In this document: positions 21,969-27,487 of the stretch, one piece after another
How positions within the stretch are numbered: the first letter of the stretch is position 1
How the letters are laid out: every line of letters starts with the position of its first letter
Source: an uncultured Candidatus Saccharibacteria bacterium
GTDB taxonomy: Bacteria; Patescibacteriota; CALEFQ01
Assembly: GCA_965230955.1 (NCBI GenBank)
Contig: OZ246404.1
Span: 648,410-683,425 of the forward strand
Length of the DNA: 35,016 nucleotides
Reading direction: 5' to 3'
Position numbers and translations under genes: made by a program
Notes under the pieces: model-generated
The model's database searches: none
Told to the model about the DNA's origin: nothing
What the model saw: the letters and a program-made list of their open reading frames with translations, nothing else

Positions 21969-22979
21969 TTATAACCACTGAGAGACTTTAGCACCTTTCT
22001 CTTTTTCTTTCAACCAAGAATCAAAATAGGCGAAAAGAATGTGGGAAGCATCAACCTGTTCAACAGTTTCTCCGCTTTCATTCGGCTTATTCTCTTTGGC
22101 ATTCACTTTGATTATATGGTAGCCATATTCCGTCTCTACGACGCCGCTGACAGCACCGGGTTGCAGTGAAAAAGCAGCTTCTTCAAATGAAGGAATCATC
22201 ATTCCGCGACCAAAAAAACCCAATTCCCCGCCCAGCTCAGCCGATTGGGCATCGTCGCTGTATTGCTTGGCTAATTCGGCAAATTTATCGGGATTTTCCT
22301 GAGCCTGCTTCGAAACTTCTTCGGCGCGCTGACGTGCGATTGTTTTGTATTCCTCAGTGTCTTTGATTTTTTCTTCCAATTTCTTGCGCTCCACAAAAGG
22401 TCGGATGGCCAAATCCATAATCATTTTTTTGTCATTCCAGCCGAATTGCTGATCAAAAGCTTTGAGCGCTTCGTCTTCTTTTCCGCCCATCTGAGCAACA
22501 TAACTTTGGAATTCGGCATCGACATCGCTATCGGAAACCTTGACGCCCATTTGCTGGCACAAAGAAGAGATCAAGGCTTCTTTTTTGAGCTTTTCTTTGA
22601 CGTTAGTTTCAATTTCTTCCACCATGGCCTTACCTTCTTCCGTCGAAAAATCCGTTTGCAACTGACTCGAGAAAAAGTGCTTCATGGCTTCCACGTGCTG
22701 GCGAAAACGATTCATGGTAACGGTCTGTGAATCCACCGACATCAAGGGGTAAGGAACAATCTTTATGAGAGAATTAAACGCCTGATTTCCGGAAAATTCT
22801 CGATCCCAGCGTTTTTTGTAAATGCCGAGCCCGAAAATAACGACAAAAGCGACAATCGCAATCACGACTACCGCCACGATCACCCCAATAAGCTTAAACC
22901 AGCTTTTTTTTGAACGGGGCGCTTTCTTGACCGGAGTACTAGCCTTTGTCTCCAGTTCTTTCTTTGGTGCTGTTTCCAT
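21969..22979 (-). CDS. Parvulin-type peptidyl-prolyl isomerase, PrsA/SurA-like foldase
   Basis: N-terminal TM, SurA_N-like helices, FAELAKQYSDD..S...GGELG, FEEAAF, ETEYGYHIIKV. Confidence 0.92.
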   Translation of the reverse strand: METAPKKELETKASTPVKKAPRSKKSWFKLIGVIVAVVVIAIVAFVVIFGLGIYKKRWDREFSGNQAFNSLIKIVPYPLMSVDSQTVTMNRFRQHVEAMKHFFSSQLQTDFSTEEGKAMVEEIETNVKEKLKKEALISSLCQQMGVKVSDSDVDAEFQSYVAQMGGKEDEALKAFDQQFGWNDKKMIMDLAIRPFVERKKLEEKIKDTEEYKTIARQRAEEVSKQAQENPDKFAELAKQYSDDAQSAELGGELGFFGRGMMIPSFEEAAFSLQPGAVSGVVETEYGYHIIKVNAKENKPNESGETVEQVDASHILFAYFDSWLKEKEKGAKVSQWL

Positions 22980-23004: not shown

Positions 23005-23436
23005 TTAGTCTTGACTGGCAAAAAAGTAATTATACCATTTTTTGAAAATCGGTAGATAGGCGGTGGCTTTAGCATCCTCCGGAGCCGGCGCGAATTCTTC
23101 CGCCGTCCGCACGACCGCCGCATCTTTTTCTTCGATAGCCACGACAGTTTCCCCCGGTTTCTGCAATCCCAGATTTTCTCGCGCCACCTTTTCCTGATAC
23201 GAATCGGTTTTCAGGTAAGACAGCATATCCTGGAGGCGCTGGTTTTCTTTTACCAGTGTTTCCCGTCGCTCTTTTATCGACTTTATCTCCTGCGACACTT
23301 CGTATTTTTTATGAATCACGCGGCTCAGGAAATAAGCCATGACCACAAATACTAATACCGCTACAATCACAAAAACTTTCGAGCGCAGAACTCGCTTGAC
23401 CAGCGAACCTTCAGGTTGGCTTTGATCCATCGCCAT
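23005..23436 (-). CDS. Septum formation initiator, FtsB/DivIC family
   Basis: Single TM, coiled coil, Y.EKVARENLGL.KPGE. Confidence 0.88.
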   Translation of the reverse strand: MAMDQSQPEGSLVKRVLRSKVFVIVAVLVFVVMAYFLSRVIHKKYEVSQEIKSIKERRETLVKENQRLQDMLSYLKTDSYQEKVARENLGLQKPGETVVAIEEKDAAVVRTAEEFAPAPEDAKATAYLPIFKKWYNYFFASQD

Positions 23437-24040
23437 TAATTTTGACCTTAATCTCCGCCGTCTTAGAAGCAGGGGCGGCAGCGGTTTCGTTTTTCACCTT
23501 CTGGATATAATCGACGAGCTCTTTGGCCGACAACCCCGACTGGGGATTCTGCCGTTGGGCAAATTCCTGGACCTTGCTCAACTTGTCTTTAACGATTTCT
23601 GGAGTTTCCACGGCCTCGATACAGATCGGCTTTTTGTCACCCCCCAGATTAACATAAACATTGCCATAACCAAAGAGAGTTGCCATTAATCCCTTGATTT
23701 CAAAAGTCACTTCCATGATCCAAGCATGCGGGGCTTCCCGCACCCGGCGCAAAAACATTCCGCGTTGTTCGATATCGATTATCCGCTGACTTGTCACCAG
23801 GGTCAAATTGAAGTACCATGTAAACCAGGAAATCAACAACCAGACGATACTGACCGCCCACCAGGCAATGACCAGGATAGTCAACCAAGAATAGGTGAAA
23901 ATGTAGGATAAGAACGGCATGGTCACCCCGACAAAGACTATCGTCCGGATCACCGGCCACAGAAAAGAGGCCCAGTGCTGGCGCAACAACAAAACCGGCT
24001 CTTCCCCTTCCCGTAAATTTTGTTTAAAATAAGAACCCAT
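23411..24040 (-). CDS. Bacterial PH-domain (bPH_2) membrane protein
   Basis: RQHW, two TM, VTSQRIIDIEQRG.F.R, GL.ATLFGYG.V. Confidence 0.85.
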   Translation of the reverse strand: MGSYFKQNLREGEEPVLLLRQHWASFLWPVIRTIVFVGVTMPFLSYIFTYSWLTILVIAWWAVSIVWLLISWFTWYFNLTLVTSQRIIDIEQRGMFLRRVREAPHAWIMEVTFEIKGLMATLFGYGNVYVNLGGDKKPICIEAVETPEIVKDKLSKVQEFAQRQNPQSGLSAKELVDYIQKVKNETAAAPASKTAEIKVKINGDGSKPT

Positions 24041-24042
24041 TT

Positions 24043-24135
24043 ATGAAAACTTCTACGCGAATTGTTTGGTGGATCTTGACGATTCTAGTCGTCGGCGGCA
24101 TGATTCTACTCATGGTTATGCCAGCTTTGCAATAA
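24043..24135 (+). CDS. Putative 30 aa single-pass membrane microprotein (below the ORF-track cutoff)
   Basis: MKTSTRIVWWILTILVVGGMILLMVMPALQ*; basic N-terminus plus 20 hydrophobic residues; exactly fills the intergenic gap. Confidence 0.6.
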   Translation: MKTSTRIVWWILTILVVGGMILLMVMPALQ

Positions 24136-24837
24136 TTACTCCGCCGCCTGAGCATAGCGAAAAAATATTTTATCCCGATAAGCCGGCAACGTAACGTCGG
24201 CTTTTTTGGTTACTTCGACATTGGCCTCCGGAAAAACCTGCTTTATTTGTTCCAGAATCCCGCCCTCGCGCTGGAGCGCGGTCGCCAGCAGGTCAGCTTC
24301 CCCGACCGCTTCGAATCGATACGGCGGGGCCAAGACGGTCCCGTCCAGGGCAATCTGCAATCCCTGGGGCATAATCGCCGAACGATAGACAATTCGATTC
24401 CCGTTGAGCGCCACTCCTTCGATGCCGATATTGCGCAGGGTATTCAATAAATCCAGCAACTGGACGTCCAAAATCGGACCGTCAACGAACAGAGATATGC
24501 CCGGTCCTGTCACTTGCTCCAGCCCGGAAATTTTCCGATATTGATCCAGTGAAGCTTGCAGAACATCAGTTCCCGGCAGACGATATTGAAGCGCTTCTTG
24601 ATAATCGCGCTGTTTTTGCTCGAGATTCTCCACTTCCTGACGCAAGGTCGTATTGCTGTCGGCCAAAATACTGACTTCCAAAGCCAGATTTTTTTGCTGA
24701 TCCGGATCGGTTATTTCCTTGACTTGATTAGTGGAAAAAAACTGTCCGACCAGCAAGAACCCGGCAACAATCGCAATGGCAAACGTGATCAATGAAGGAG
24801 TGGAGGGCCGTTTAATTTTACGGGGATCAAATTTCAT
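24136..24837 (-). CDS. DUF881 family protein
   Basis: N-terminal TM, coiled coil, G...VTGPGI, LLN.LRNIG.EG.ALNG.R, PPYRFEAVG. Confidence 0.9.
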   Translation of the reverse strand: MKFDPRKIKRPSTPSLITFAIAIVAGFLLVGQFFSTNQVKEITDPDQQKNLALEVSILADSNTTLRQEVENLEQKQRDYQEALQYRLPGTDVLQASLDQYRKISGLEQVTGPGISLFVDGPILDVQLLDLLNTLRNIGIEGVALNGNRIVYRSAIMPQGLQIALDGTVLAPPYRFEAVGEADLLATALQREGGILEQIKQVFPEANVEVTKKADVTLPAYRDKIFFRYAQAAE

Positions 24838-25561
24838 AAGTGCCCAAAAACTGATTAAGCGTCAGGCTATCTTTTTTTTCGACACTTAGAATGAGATTGT
24901 AGTCTCTTTTCCGCTGATGCAAATCCATTAATCGCCCCGGGTCGTCTATAAAACGTGCCAGTTCGTCTTTGTTACCGATCGCTCTAATAATCAGAGGCGT
25001 ACCGACATGCGATTCATTAACTAAAATCGTATTGACGATGCAATTAATTGAAGTGGTACCGACCACCCGTTCGTCATTAATAGTGATCGCCTCCGCCCCG
25101 GCGGCCCAAAGCATATTCACCGTATCCAAAATATCTGTTGAATGAATAATAGCGTCGTTTTTGAAATCATTGCGATCTTTCAAGCCTTCGTACTTGCCGT
25201 CGCCCAAGATCACTTCTACCCCCTCGCCCGATACCGGAGTGAGCCCCACAATCATTTTATAATCACGCAATTCGGCGGAAAGATCCTTGGAAGTGGTCCG
25301 GCGTTCCTCGACCTGTTTTTCTTTATCGCGTACTTCCTCGCGCAAATCAGCGATTGCCTGACGTAAGTCTTTTTGCTCCAAAGCCATTGCATCAACCGTG
25401 CGCTCCAGCTCCAGCGCCGGTCGAACGGAATCGGTCGAACGCGGATTAGTCCGGATAGAGATGATCTGAACCACGATAAAGCCGCCAACCACAATACCGA
25501 TCATTAGAAAAATGATCGTATAGAGTAACGCATACGAACGTTTTTGCGGCTGATTCTCCAT
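24827..25561 (-). CDS. DUF881 family protein
   Basis: GLTPVSGEGV.V.L.D, IHSTDILD.VN.LWAAGAEAI.IND.RV; ATG at 25561 preferred. Confidence 0.92.
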   Translation of the reverse strand: MENQPQKRSYALLYTIIFLMIGIVVGGFIVVQIISIRTNPRSTDSVRPALELERTVDAMALEQKDLRQAIADLREEVRDKEKQVEERRTTSKDLSAELRDYKMIVGLTPVSGEGVEVILGDGKYEGLKDRNDFKNDAIIHSTDILDTVNMLWAAGAEAITINDERVVGTTSINCIVNTILVNESHVGTPLIIRAIGNKDELARFIDDPGRLMDLHQRKRDYNLILSVEKKDSLTLNQFLGTYEI

Positions 25562-25576
25562 TGATTTACCAGTTGT

Positions 25577-25605
25577 ATTATAAAAAAAAACGCTCAAAAT
25601 AGCAA
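25577..25605 (-). promoter_or_regulatory. Sigma70 promoter of the DUF881 cluster
   Basis: TTGCTA-N17-TATAAT. Confidence 0.65.
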
Positions 25606-25663: not shown

Positions 25664-27487
25664 CTAGTCCCTTTTTAAAACCGCCAAAAAAACCTCTTGC
25701 GGGACCGAAACACTGCCGATGGTCTTCATCTTTTTCTTCCCTTTTTTCTGTTTTTCCAACAATTTGGCTTTGCGCGTCACATCGCCGCCGTATAAATATC
25801 CGACCACATCCTTCCGAAAAGCCGGGATGGTTTCGCGAGCCAGAATATCGCCGCCGACCGTGGCCTGAATCGGTACCGGAATCTGATGTTTGGGAATTAA
25901 ATCCTTCAGTTTTTTAACCACCGACCGCCCCAACACGGAGGCTTCCGTGCGATGCACAATTGTAGCCAGGGCATCAAATTTTTCTTTGTTGATCAAAATA
26001 TCCAGGCGAACCAAATCCGCGGCGCGATAATCCGCCAGATCGTAATTCAGTGAAGCGTAACCGGAGCTGACGCTTTTTAACTTGTCATAAAAATCGACAA
26101 TCAGGTTGAAAAGCGGAATTTCATATTTCAAAATCGCCCGATTTTCACCGAGATATTCGGTATTCTGATAAATTCCCCGGCGCCCCTCGGCCAATTCCAT
26201 CACTTTTCCCAAACATTCTTTGGGCGTGATGATCTCCACTCGCGCCCAAGGCTCCAAAATTTCCAGATATTGCGCGGGTAATTTCGCAGGAGAAGTGATT
26301 TGTTGAATTTCACCGCGGCTGTTTTTTATTCGATATACGACACTGGGTGCCGTCACCACCAAGTTTAGGCCATATTCCCGCTGTAACCTCTCTTGGAAAA
26401 TTTCCAAGTGCAATAAGCCCAAAAAACCGCAGCGATAACCGAATCCCAGCGGTCCGCCCTGATCCGGTTCATAAACGAGCGACGCATCATTTAATTTTAG
26501 TTTGCCGATCGAATCTTTCAGCAAGGGATAATCAGCCGCGTCGACCGGATACACACCCGCGTACACCACCGGGATCGGCTCTTTGTAACCCGGCAGGGGC
26601 TCAACCGGCAAGGACGCATTTTTTGTTTTGCGTTTAATATTTGTCACGGTATCGCCCACCCGCACGCCTGATAAATCCTTCAGTCCGGTGTCAATATAGC
26701 CAACCTCGCCGGAGCTGAGTTGCGCCGTCGACATCAGCTGGGGCTTGAATATTCCTAAGTCCAGAACCTCTCCTTCGCTTTTGGCCGCCAAAAAAGATAG
26801 CGGATCACCTTTTTTAATTTCGCCATCGACTATTCGGATATAAGCCTGAACCCCGCGGTAAGAATCATAACGCGAGTCAAAAATCAGAGCACGGAGAGGT
26901 TTCCGATTATCGCCCCGTGGCGGCGGCACGCGCTTAATCACCGCTTTGATAATTTCCGGGATTCCCTCACCAGTTTTCGCCGAAGCCAGAATAATTTCAT
27001 CTTCCTTGATTCCAAGCGTGGCTGTCAATTCTTTCGCCACCCGAGCTGGATCGGCGTTGGGCAAATCGATTTTATTTATGACAGGAATGATTGTCAAATT
27101 TTGTTCAATCGCCAAATAGACATTGGCCAGAGTCTGAGCTTGAATTCCCTGAGTAGCATCAACAACCAAAATCGCGCCTTCACAAGCCGCCAATGAACGA
27201 GAAACTTCATAAGTAAAATCGACATGGCCGGGAGTATCAATCAAATTCAAAAGCAAAAAGTCAAAAGTCGCAATATCGTTGCTTTTTACTTTCATGGTGA
27301 CCGGCTGCAGCTTGATCGTAATTCCACGCTCCCGCTCTAAATCCATTTGATCCAATAATTGAGCCTGCATATCCCGCTTGGCCACCGTTTCCGTGTATTC
27401 TAAAAGCCGATCGGCCAGGGTCGATTTGCCGTGGTCGATATGGGCAATGATACAAAAATTTCGGATTTGAGAAAGTTGGTATGTCAT
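25664..27487 (-). CDS. lepA: Elongation factor 4 (LepA)
   Basis: [56 protein letters not shown]. Confidence 0.98.

What the first reader, a model, noticed from the sequence alone, without database searches (positions are those of the whole stretch)
24043..24135. Unannotated 30 aa membrane microprotein running antisense through an operon gap
Seen: ATG 2 nt from the divergent bPH_2 ATG (CAT-TT-ATG) and TAA directly abutting the convergent DUF881 stop (TAA-TTA), so the ORF fills the 95 nt gap almost exactly. The product MKTSTR-IVWWILTILVVGGMILLMVM-PALQ has a basic N-terminus and one clean TM helix. The layout loosely resembles Prli42/DUF4044-type microproteins (from memory, weak). It is the second near-zero-spacing divergent start in the window.
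Basis: partly seen in the sequence, partly recalled or inferred. Interest (0 to 1): 0.62.

Follow-up and report, generated by a model that had tools for sequence, protein, structure and literature searches.

The report
Conserved 30-residue membrane microprotein gene
The tiny reading frame is a genuine gene, kept under strong selection in a subgroup of Saccharibacteria, for a 30-residue single-helix membrane protein wedged backwards into a cell-envelope/division gene cluster; it is almost absent from protein databases, and its job is still only inferred.

Summary
The ORF at 24043-24135(+) is exactly as described: 30 codons, ATG 2 nt from the divergent bPH_2 start, and a TAA abutting the DUF881 stop. 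An ORF this short is not beyond chance on its own. Its conservation is. A 30-31 aa ORF in the same place and orientation occurs in every fetched locus whose bPH_2 or DUF881 neighbour is a close relative (bPH_2 47-93% identical). That gives 13 distinct peptides from 14 distinct DNA sequences.

Substitutions are overwhelmingly synonymous or hydrophobic-for-hydrophobic:
- Window versus its nearest relative: 11 synonymous changes and one V->I.
- Five independent pairs pooled: Fisher p = 2e-27.

Only this frame is open in all relatives. M1, K2, I7, W10, V16, M20 and P27 are invariant. AlphaFold2 gives one helix (residues 3-29, pLDDT 94).

No Pfam, NCBIfam or Rfam family matches, including DUF4044/Prli42. 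A profile search of 1.84 billion proteins found only the family's own single unnamed member.

Verdict: a real microprotein of a new family, of a well-known kind. It probably lies N-in/C-out in the membrane and is probably a partner of the adjacent envelope proteins, most likely the bPH_2 protein. Its promoter, terminator, translation and function remain unproven.

The parts
24043..24135 (+). Microprotein gene (30 codons plus TAA): MKTSTRIVWWILTILVVGGMILLMVMPALQ. Basic N-terminus (K2, R6), TM helix about residues 7-26, short C-terminal P-x-(F/L)-(Y/Q).
   Evidence: Orthologous 30-31 aa ORFs in 13 further distinct DNA sequences. Synonymous versus non-synonymous test. AF2 helix over residues 3-29, pLDDT 93.6.
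24025..24030 (+). Candidate -10 element TAAAAT, 12 nt upstream of the ATG, inside codons 4-6 (Y-F-K) of the bPH_2 gene. Unresolved.
   Evidence: Kept in 12 of 14 sequences. L020, where the ORF is 154 nt from bPH_2, has its own TATAAT 14 nt upstream. Against: L052 has TGAAAT, L020's bPH_2 keeps the motif without the ORF beside it, and AT-rich 5' codons explain it equally well. The tool's promoter scan did not list it.
24180..24209 (+). Terminator-like hairpin (8-bp stem, 8-nt loop) plus a T-run, 45 nt after the stop, embedded antisense in the last codons of DUF881b (KKADVTLPAY).
   Evidence: A hairpin at the equivalent place in relatives, with a different stem sequence in L004. Synonymous-recoding control: 2/200 for the window, 0/200 for L004, 6/200 for L005, 8/200 for L003, weaker elsewhere. 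A close relative's contig changes only loop bases.
23411..24040 (-). bPH_2-like (YdbT/YdbS-like) membrane protein gene, head to head with the microprotein gene (2 nt between start codons). Best partner candidate.
   Evidence: The spacer is 2-3 nt in 13 of 14 lineages.
24136..24837 (-). DUF881 gene b, convergent with the microprotein gene (stop codons abut).
24827..25597 (-). DUF881 gene a, overlapping DUF881b.
23005..23436 (-). DivIC/FtsB-like septum formation initiator gene, overlapping the end of bPH_2.
21969..22979 (-). PrsA/SurA-like PpiC-type membrane-anchored foldase gene, last gene of the cluster.
   Evidence: The same gene order is seen in L001-L003, L020, L058 and L060.

Best explanation
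Shown by evolutionary signature (about 0.93): 24043-24135(+) is a genuine protein-coding gene for a 30-residue single-helix membrane microprotein. It defines a new small family confined, as far as could be searched, to one subgroup of Candidatus Saccharibacteria.

Inferred from sequence rules (about 0.85): the basic N-terminus (MKK/TSxR) stays in the cytoplasm, residues about 7-26 span the membrane, and only about 4 residues (P-x-F/L-Y/Q) face outside.

Inferred from context (about 0.4): the protein acts as a membrane-embedded accessory subunit or modulator of the bitopic envelope/division proteins encoded around it. These are two DUF881 proteins, bPH_2, DivIC/FtsB and a PrsA-like foldase. The most likely partner is the bPH_2 protein, because its start codon lies 2-3 nt away in 13 of 14 lineages and its close orthologues co-occur with the microprotein. 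Sequence-specific invariant residues inside the helix (I7, W10, V16, G19, M20, P27) point to helix-helix packing rather than a mere hydrophobic anchor.

Inferred (about 0.5): the gene is expressed as its own short transcript of about 150-170 nt on the strand opposite the cluster. Translation would start without a Shine-Dalgarno sequence at an unstructured AU-rich 5' end, and transcription would end at a hairpin plus T-run buried in the 3' end of DUF881b. Such an mRNA would be fully complementary to any read-through operon mRNA across the DUF881b-bPH_2 junction.
For: 1. Conservation.
- An own HMM run on six-frame ORFs finds the peptide at the same position and strand in all 25 fetched loci with a close bPH_2/DUF881 relative (14 distinct ORF sequences counting the window's): L001-L007, L018-L021, L051-L055 and L058-L062, with E values from 1e-12 to 1e-22. 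It finds it nowhere else in 62 loci.
- All copies are 30 aa (31 in one), and the ATG is invariant.

2. Coding signature.
- Window versus L051: 12 differences, 11 synonymous plus V8I.
- L001 versus L002: 3 synonymous, 0 non-synonymous.
- Five phylogenetically separate pairs pooled: Sd 72.7 over 103.8 synonymous sites against Nd 48.3 over 346.2 non-synonymous sites, Fisher p = 2e-27.
- Variable columns by codon position: 22, 9 and 25 of 30.
- This is the only one of six frames that is open in all relatives.
- A further near relative in a sediment metagenome contig has 3 synonymous changes plus L29F.

3. The ORF survives rearrangement of its flanks. The distance to the DUF881 stop is -4, 0, 5, 57, 92 or 164 nt, and to bPH_2 it is 154 nt in L020.

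4. Membrane helix. Mean Kyte-Doolittle hydropathy is 2.6-2.9 over residues 7-26. AF2 gives one helix over residues 3-29, pLDDT 93.6.

5. Lack of a Shine-Dalgarno sequence is normal here: only 4 of 32 long ORFs in the window have an SD-like motif. The first 20 nt of the modelled transcript are unpaired.

6. Terminator-like hairpin.

7. No RNA family matches the gap.
Against: - There is no direct evidence of transcription or translation. No RNA run holds the stretch.
- The promoter is unresolved. The TAAAAT motif is degraded in L052 and is equally explained by AT-rich 5' codons of bPH_2.
- The hairpin lies in coding sequence and would also form in the operon mRNA. Its recoding control is weak in some lineages (58/200 in L007, 31/200 in L002).
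- Conserved residues do not cluster significantly on one helical face (permutation p = 0.15).
- The partner assignment rests on gene linkage alone. No co-fold or interaction test could be run.
Confidence: 0.8

Rival explanations
1. Type I toxin-like peptide. The small hydrophobic peptide would be a membrane-damaging toxin whose mRNA is held in check by the fully complementary operon transcript (or an unseen antisense RNA), as in the hok/sok, fst/RNAII or tisB/istR systems.
For: The size (30 aa), the single hydrophobic helix and an obligatory overlap with transcription from the opposite strand resemble type I toxins. The features of that class are taken from the review PMC10730256.
Against: It is a single syntenic copy inside a housekeeping envelope cluster. 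It is kept intact with dN/dS about 0.05-0.3 across lineages whose neighbour protein has diverged to 47% identity. There is no second copy in the window or in any locus. It lacks the charged or polar C-terminal tail typical of Fst- or Hok-type toxins. No dedicated antitoxin RNA promoter is conserved on the minus strand: the TTGCAA-18-TAGAAT candidate is not kept in relatives, by inspection of the sequences.
Confidence: 0.06
2. Not translated. The conserved feature would be an RNA or DNA element of the operon junction, such as the 5' leader or translation-initiation region of bPH_2, an internal promoter, or an antisense RNA. The open frame would then be incidental.
For: The gap is the only non-overlapping junction of the cluster, so it must carry whatever signals bPH_2 needs. 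The invariant AAAAAA of codons 2-3 is also the U-rich stretch just upstream of the bPH_2 start. The modelled RNA folds somewhat better than shuffles (z = -2.2).
Against: Nucleotide changes concentrate at third codon positions and at first positions that swap I/L/V/M/F. Second positions are nearly fixed. Nucleotide identity is low (synonymous sites are saturated) while the peptide, its length, its start and its stop are kept. The ORF persists in L020 and L052, where its flanks differ. No Rfam family matches.
Confidence: 0.03
3. Dual function, not exclusive of the best explanation. Besides encoding the peptide, the short plus-strand mRNA would act as a cis-antisense regulator. It would pair with the operon mRNA at the DUF881b-bPH_2 junction, or interfere with transcription there, and so uncouple expression of the DUF881 pair from bPH_2-DivIC-PrsA.
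For: The geometry makes the overlap unavoidable if both strands are transcribed. The start codons are 2-3 nt apart in 13 of 14 lineages. The ORF covers the whole region upstream of the bPH_2 start. No conserved minus-strand promoter for bPH_2 was seen in the gap.
Against: It is entirely inferential, since no transcript data exist. L020 keeps the peptide but has lost the tight head-to-head geometry, so that geometry is not essential to the gene.
Confidence: 0.15

Closest known systems
Prli42 (Pfam DUF4044), the 31-aa membrane miniprotein of Listeria and other Firmicutes that tethers the stressosome protein RsbR to the membrane
   Same: The size is almost identical (30 versus 31 aa). The layout is the same: a few basic residues at the N-terminus (K2, K/T3, R/K6 here; K4, K5, R8 in Prli42 according to PMC10730256), followed by one TM helix to the C-terminus. 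It is a plausible model for how this protein works: a basic cytoplasmic stub docks a partner and the helix anchors it.
   Different: There is no sequence relationship. None of 8 members hits DUF4044 even at E <= 10. The phylum differs (Saccharibacteria versus Firmicutes). The context is an envelope/division cluster, not sigma-B/stressosome genes. The helix here has invariant W10, V16, M20 and P27.
   Same: It is a small, basic, membrane-embedded product encoded immediately next to a pair of DUF881 genes in a division/cell-wall neighbourhood.
   Different: Sbp is about 110-120 aa with several TM segments and is co-oriented with the DUF881 genes. This protein has 30 aa and one TM, lies on the opposite strand, and has no DUF1290 match. 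Analogy of position only.
Small single-TM regulators of larger membrane proteins or the divisome (for example AcrZ, MgrB, KdpF, Blr, SidA), recalled from general knowledge of bacterial small proteins
   Same: They have 25-50 residues and one TM helix, were overlooked by annotation, and act by helix-helix binding to a larger membrane protein that is often encoded nearby.
   Different: No homology to any of them was detected. The partner is untested. The antisense placement inside an operon gap is unusual for this class.
Type I toxins (Fst, TisB, Ibs, BsrG and others)
   Same: They are short hydrophobic peptides whose genes overlap transcription from the opposite strand.
   Different: This gene has a housekeeping-like, single-copy, syntenic conservation pattern under purifying selection. 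There is no polar tail and no dedicated antitoxin RNA (see the rival explanations).

Membership tests
Prli42 / DUF4044 (PF13253) | Significant match to the DUF4044 profile | tested here: not met
   hmmscan of the window peptide (E <= 1) and of 8 family members (E <= 10) gives no DUF4044 hit.
Prli42 / DUF4044 (PF13253) | About 31 aa with a basic N-terminal stub followed by a single C-terminal TM helix | tested here: met
   30 aa. K2, K/T/R3 and R/K6 are followed by a hydrophobic stretch over residues 7-26. AF2 gives a helix over residues 3-29.
Prli42 / DUF4044 (PF13253) | Stressosome partner (RsbR/RsbS/RsbT) present in the genome; Firmicutes distribution | not testable with these tools
The relatives are labelled Candidatus Saccharibacteria or Patescibacteria, not Firmicutes.
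Sbp / DUF1290 | Match to the DUF1290 profile; about 110-120 aa multi-TM protein | tested here: not met
   No DUF1290 hit. The product has 30 aa and one helix.
Sbp / DUF1290 | Encoded next to a DUF881 pair, co-oriented with it | tested here: not met
   It is adjacent to the DUF881 pair in all loci but always on the opposite strand.
Type I toxin-antitoxin toxin | Small hydrophobic membrane peptide | tested here: met
Type I toxin-antitoxin toxin | Dedicated antisense RNA antitoxin with its own conserved promoter | tested here: inconclusive
   The only minus-strand promoter-like site in the ORF (24132-24103) is not conserved in relatives (sequences). Overlap with operon read-through is possible but unshown.
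Type I toxin-antitoxin toxin | Toxicity on overexpression; patchy or multicopy distribution | tested here: not met
   The distribution is single-copy and strictly syntenic, with purifying selection. Toxicity itself is not testable here.
Bacterial small membrane proteins (<=50 aa, single TM), generic kind | ORF conserved across species with a protein-level selection signature | tested here: met
   13 distinct peptides. Pooled synonymous versus non-synonymous Fisher p = 2e-27. Codon-position variability 22/9/25.
Bacterial small membrane proteins (<=50 aa, single TM), generic kind | Demonstrated translation and membrane localisation | not testable with these tools
   No RNA-seq, Ribo-seq or proteomic data were reachable.

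The most novel reading that the evidence does not exclude
The microprotein and its mRNA together would form a lineage-specific control module of the Saccharibacteria envelope/division cluster. The peptide would be a stoichiometric membrane subunit of a bPH_2-DUF881-DivIC complex, taking the place that Sbp/DUF1290 holds beside DUF881 pairs in other phyla. Its transcript, fully antisense to the only non-overlapping junction of the operon, would set the ratio of the DUF881 pair to bPH_2/DivIC/PrsA. This would be a protein-coding gene acting as a built-in antisense switch in a minimal genome.
Probability: 0.1. Interest if true: 0.65.

Novelty: new member of a known kind. Interest (0 to 1): 0.42.

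Why it matters
Saccharibacteria and other Patescibacteria have tiny genomes, and a large share of their genes have no known function. Their cell division and envelope biology is poorly understood.

A 30-residue protein kept almost letter for letter next to DivIC/FtsB, two DUF881 proteins and a PH-domain membrane protein is a cheap, concrete handle on that machinery. It can be synthesised, tagged or used as bait.

The case also shows that standard protein catalogues miss real genes of this size. A profile search of 1.84 billion proteins returned only one unnamed entry. In addition, an "intergenic gap" in an operon can be fully occupied by a gene on the other strand, which matters for operon and promoter prediction in these genomes.

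Tried and rejected
Paralogues elsewhere in the genome and the wider Saccharibacteria distribution therefore could not be checked.
- The search for homologous proteins refuses queries under 40 aa.

**Searches that returned nothing or too little**
- Pfam, NCBIfam and Rfam gave only insignificant hits to transmembrane segments, or none.
- Two searches for RNA sequencing runs found DNA metagenomes only: wastewater, sediment and sludge.
- Literature searches on DUF881 and on small proteins in Saccharibacteria found nothing that bears on this gene.
- Earlier scan notes searched by sequence and by words returned nothing.

**Ideas tested and not upheld**
- Analogous divergent small TM ORFs were sought next to distant bPH_2 homologues (at most 33% identity) in other Patescibacteria and in Chloroflexota. 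None was found. The association is specific to the close orthologue group.
- A conserved -10 box inside the Y-F-K codons of bPH_2 remains ambiguous. It is degraded in L052, and L020's bPH_2 keeps it although the ORF has moved away. The striking CAA 14/14 at the Gln codon, against a CAA:CAG ratio of 31:76 elsewhere in these genes, fits AT-rich 5' codons just as well.
- A minus-strand promoter for bPH_2 inside the ORF is not conserved in relatives.
- Clustering of conserved residues on one helical face was not significant (p = 0.15).
- A longer ORF from an upstream TTG, as in L004, L021 and L058, was rejected because the extension is not conserved and the ATG is invariant.

Full report
**1. Observation**

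Reading the window and listing ORFs confirms every coordinate of the finding.
- The ATG is at 24043 and the TAA at 24133-24135. The product has 30 residues: MKTSTRIVWWILTILVVGGMILLMVMPALQ.
- Five genes lie on the minus strand: DUF881a (24827-25597), DUF881b (24136-24837), a bPH_2-like membrane protein (23411-24040), DivIC/FtsB (23005-23436) and a PpiC-type foldase (21969-22979). lepA lies upstream at 25664-27487.
- Pfam supports these names. The bPH_2 call is below the gathering score (E 0.005).
- Every junction of the cluster overlaps or is tight except one. That one is the 95-nt gap at 24041-24135, and the plus-strand ORF fills 93 nt of it.
- The two start codons are 2 nt apart (CAT-TT-ATG) and the two stop codons abut (TAA-TTA).
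- A 30-codon ORF by itself means nothing. One search lists 76 ORFs of at least 25 aa in this 6 kb.

**2. Is it conserved?**

I therefore went through the neighbours.

How the relatives were collected:
- The bPH_2 protein has 14 relatives in the large collection, at 93% to 30% identity.
- I fetched their contigs.
- I scanned GTDB genomes and JGI metagenomes with an alignment of these proteins.
- I later did the same through DUF881b.

What the scan of these loci showed:
- A small HMM built from the first four peptides was run over all six-frame ORFs of all loci. It finds a 30-31 aa ORF at the same place and on the same strand in every locus whose bPH_2 is at least 47% identical to the window's (or whose DUF881b is at least 55% identical). 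E values range from 1e-12 to 1e-22. It finds nothing elsewhere.
- That gives 14 distinct DNA sequences and 13 distinct peptides (alignment A3).
- The consensus is MKKSLRIITWxIVxLVVGGMxLLxIVPxFY. M1, K2, I7, W10, V16, M20 and P27 are invariant, and S4 and G19 nearly so.
- Records that carry a taxon label are labelled Candidatus Saccharibacteria or Patescibacteria group. The DNA runs that hold the window are wastewater metagenomes.
- Distant bPH_2 homologues (at most 33% identity) in other Patescibacteria and in Chloroflexia have no comparable divergent TM ORF.

**3. Is the conservation that of a protein?**

Yes, by four measures.
- Close pairs: the window and L051 differ at 12 of 90 positions. 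Eleven changes are synonymous and one is V8I. L001 and L002 differ by 3 synonymous and 0 non-synonymous changes.
- Pooled test: five phylogenetically separate pairs give 72.7 synonymous differences on 103.8 synonymous sites, against 48.3 non-synonymous differences on 346.2 sites (Fisher p = 2e-27).
- Codon positions: 22, 9 and 25 of 30 columns vary at positions 1, 2 and 3. This is the pattern of a TM helix, where first-position changes swap I/L/V/M/F and the second-position T is fixed.
- Reading frames: of the six frames, only this one is open in all sequences.

Further support:
- A near relative in a sediment metagenome contig shows four changes in the ORF. Three are synonymous and the fourth is L29F, towards the family majority.
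- The ORF also survives rearrangement of its flanks. Its stop lies -4, 0, 5, 57, 92 or 164 nt from the DUF881b stop.
- In L020 its start lies 154 nt from bPH_2 instead of 2-3 nt.
- No Rfam family matches the region on either strand.

It is clearly not met.

**4. What the product is**

- Residues 7-26 have a mean Kyte-Doolittle hydropathy of 2.6-2.9.
- AlphaFold2 with the 13-sequence alignment gives a single helix over residues 3-29 at pLDDT 93.6.
- By the positive-inside rule (established knowledge), the basic N-terminus (K2, K/T/R3, R/K6) should be cytoplasmic and the last 3-4 residues external.
- Specific residues within the helix are invariant (W10, V16, M20, P27, near-invariant G19). This argues for a sequence-specific contact rather than bare hydrophobicity.
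- However, the conserved positions do not fall significantly on one helical face (p = 0.15).

**5. Expression signals (inferred, only partly supported)**

- Shine-Dalgarno: only 4 of 32 long ORFs in the window have an SD-like motif. The absence of an SD before this ATG, and before the bPH_2 ATG, is therefore normal for the organism.
- Candidate promoter: a TAAAAT hexamer sits 12 nt upstream of the ATG, inside codons Y-F-K of bPH_2. L020 has a perfect TATAAT 14 nt upstream of its displaced copy. This would give a leader of only a few nucleotides.
- Doubts about the promoter: L052 has TGAAAT. L020's bPH_2 keeps the same motif although the ORF has moved away. The conspicuous codon choice there (Gln is CAA in 14/14, against a CAA:CAG ratio of 31:76 elsewhere in these genes) is equally explained by AT-rich 5' codons. 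I leave the promoter unresolved.
- Candidate terminator: 45 nt after the stop, an 8-bp hairpin followed by TTTTTTGGTT (24180-24209) lies antisense within the last codons of DUF881b.
- Hairpin in relatives: a hairpin plus T-run recurs at the equivalent place, with a quite different stem in L004. Against synonymous recodings of the DUF881 C-terminus, the observed hairpin is matched in 2/200 (window), 0/200 (L004), 6/200 (L005) and 8/200 (L003). The figures are 12-58/200 in other lineages. In the sediment relative only loop bases change.
- Reading of the hairpin: this is suggestive of a terminator for a short plus-strand transcript. The same hairpin would also exist in the operon mRNA.
- Transcript data: none could be found.

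**6. How it most likely works**

- Shown: it is a protein-coding gene under purifying selection, and its product is a single hydrophobic helix.
- Inferred: the product is an N-in/C-out membrane microprotein that binds a larger membrane protein.
- All five neighbours are membrane-anchored envelope or division proteins.
- The tightest and most conserved linkage is to the bPH_2 gene (a 2-3 nt spacer in 13 of 14 lineages). Its close orthologue group has exactly the same distribution as the peptide in my sample. I therefore favour bPH_2 as the partner, at about 0.4.
- If the cluster is read through as one mRNA, the small mRNA is fully complementary to the DUF881b-bPH_2 junction, including the bPH_2 initiation region. 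Mutual antisense interference is then a plausible second layer, at about 0.15. It is not essential, since L020 has lost the geometry.

**7. Rivals**

- A type I toxin is the main alternative, because the product is a small hydrophobic peptide and the gene overlaps opposite-strand transcription. Against it stand the single-copy syntenic housekeeping pattern, the strong purifying selection, the lack of a polar tail and the lack of a conserved antitoxin promoter (about 0.06).
- A purely non-coding element is excluded for practical purposes by the codon-position pattern (about 0.03).

**8. Comparison with known families**

- Prli42/DUF4044 shares size and layout: 31 aa, N-terminal K4, K5 and R8 contacting RsbR, and a C-terminal anchor (PMC10730256). 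No member hits the DUF4044 model, and both phylum and context differ. This protein may work like Prli42, but it is not a member.
- Sbp/DUF1290 shares only the position beside a DUF881 pair. Its size, number of TM segments, strand and profile match all differ.
- NCBIfam gives nothing.
- A profile search of 1.84 billion representative proteins returns only P0016, which is the L007 peptide itself, from the GEM catalogue and unnamed.
- Seven of 8 peptides are not in the 15-billion-sequence collection at all, although the gene tables of two contigs do call the 30-aa gene.

**9. Verdict**

- This is a new family of a well-known kind, the bacterial single-TM microprotein. As far as I could search, it is restricted to one Saccharibacteria subgroup.
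- It is notable for being wedged antisense into the only gap of an envelope/division operon.
- It is worth annotating and a good bait for studying this machinery, but it would not surprise a specialist. Function, promoter and translation remain to be shown.
- Interest 0.42.

Noticed in passing
window, all long ORFs (for example the starts at 24040, 24837, 22979): Only 4 of 32 long ORFs have a Shine-Dalgarno-like motif upstream. Start regions are A/T-rich instead, so this organism seems to initiate translation largely without SD pairing.
   Followed up: partly
window 24020-24031 (bPH_2 codons 4-7, Y-F-K-Q) and the same codons in 13 relatives: Gln codon 7 of bPH_2 is CAA in 14 of 14 lineages, although CAG outnumbers CAA 76:31 elsewhere in the same genes. 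TTT and TAT are also almost fixed. There is extra constraint on these synonymous sites, from the promoter of the opposite gene or from a preference for AT-rich 5' codons.
   Followed up: partly
L001 and L002 2314-2405: These relatives carry a 92-nt insert between the DUF881b stop and the microprotein stop. Its first bases (TCACTCC...) resemble the DUF881b 3' end, which looks like a partial duplication of the junction. Their DUF881b is also longer (262 and 276 aa).
   Followed up: no
L020 1090-1500: In this lower-GC relative the DUF881b-bPH_2 gap has grown to 410 nt. The microprotein gene sits in the middle with its own TATAAT box, detached from both neighbours.
   Followed up: partly
L052 1049-1105: This relative has a 57-nt spacer after the microprotein stop. 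It contains its own hairpin (-13.2 kcal/mol) followed by TTTTAC, outside any coding sequence. It is a possible independent terminator.
   Followed up: no
L056 and L057: A distant bPH_2 homologue (32% identity) sits in a different context: T4SS-pilin genes, SpoIID, bPH_2 and DUF5657. It has no microprotein, so the bPH_2 family is used in more than one envelope neighbourhood in Patescibacteria.
   Followed up: no
L003 1-892: In this relative the gene upstream of the DUF881 pair is a Bac_transf sugar transferase instead of lepA, so the cluster's upstream boundary is not fixed.
   Followed up: no
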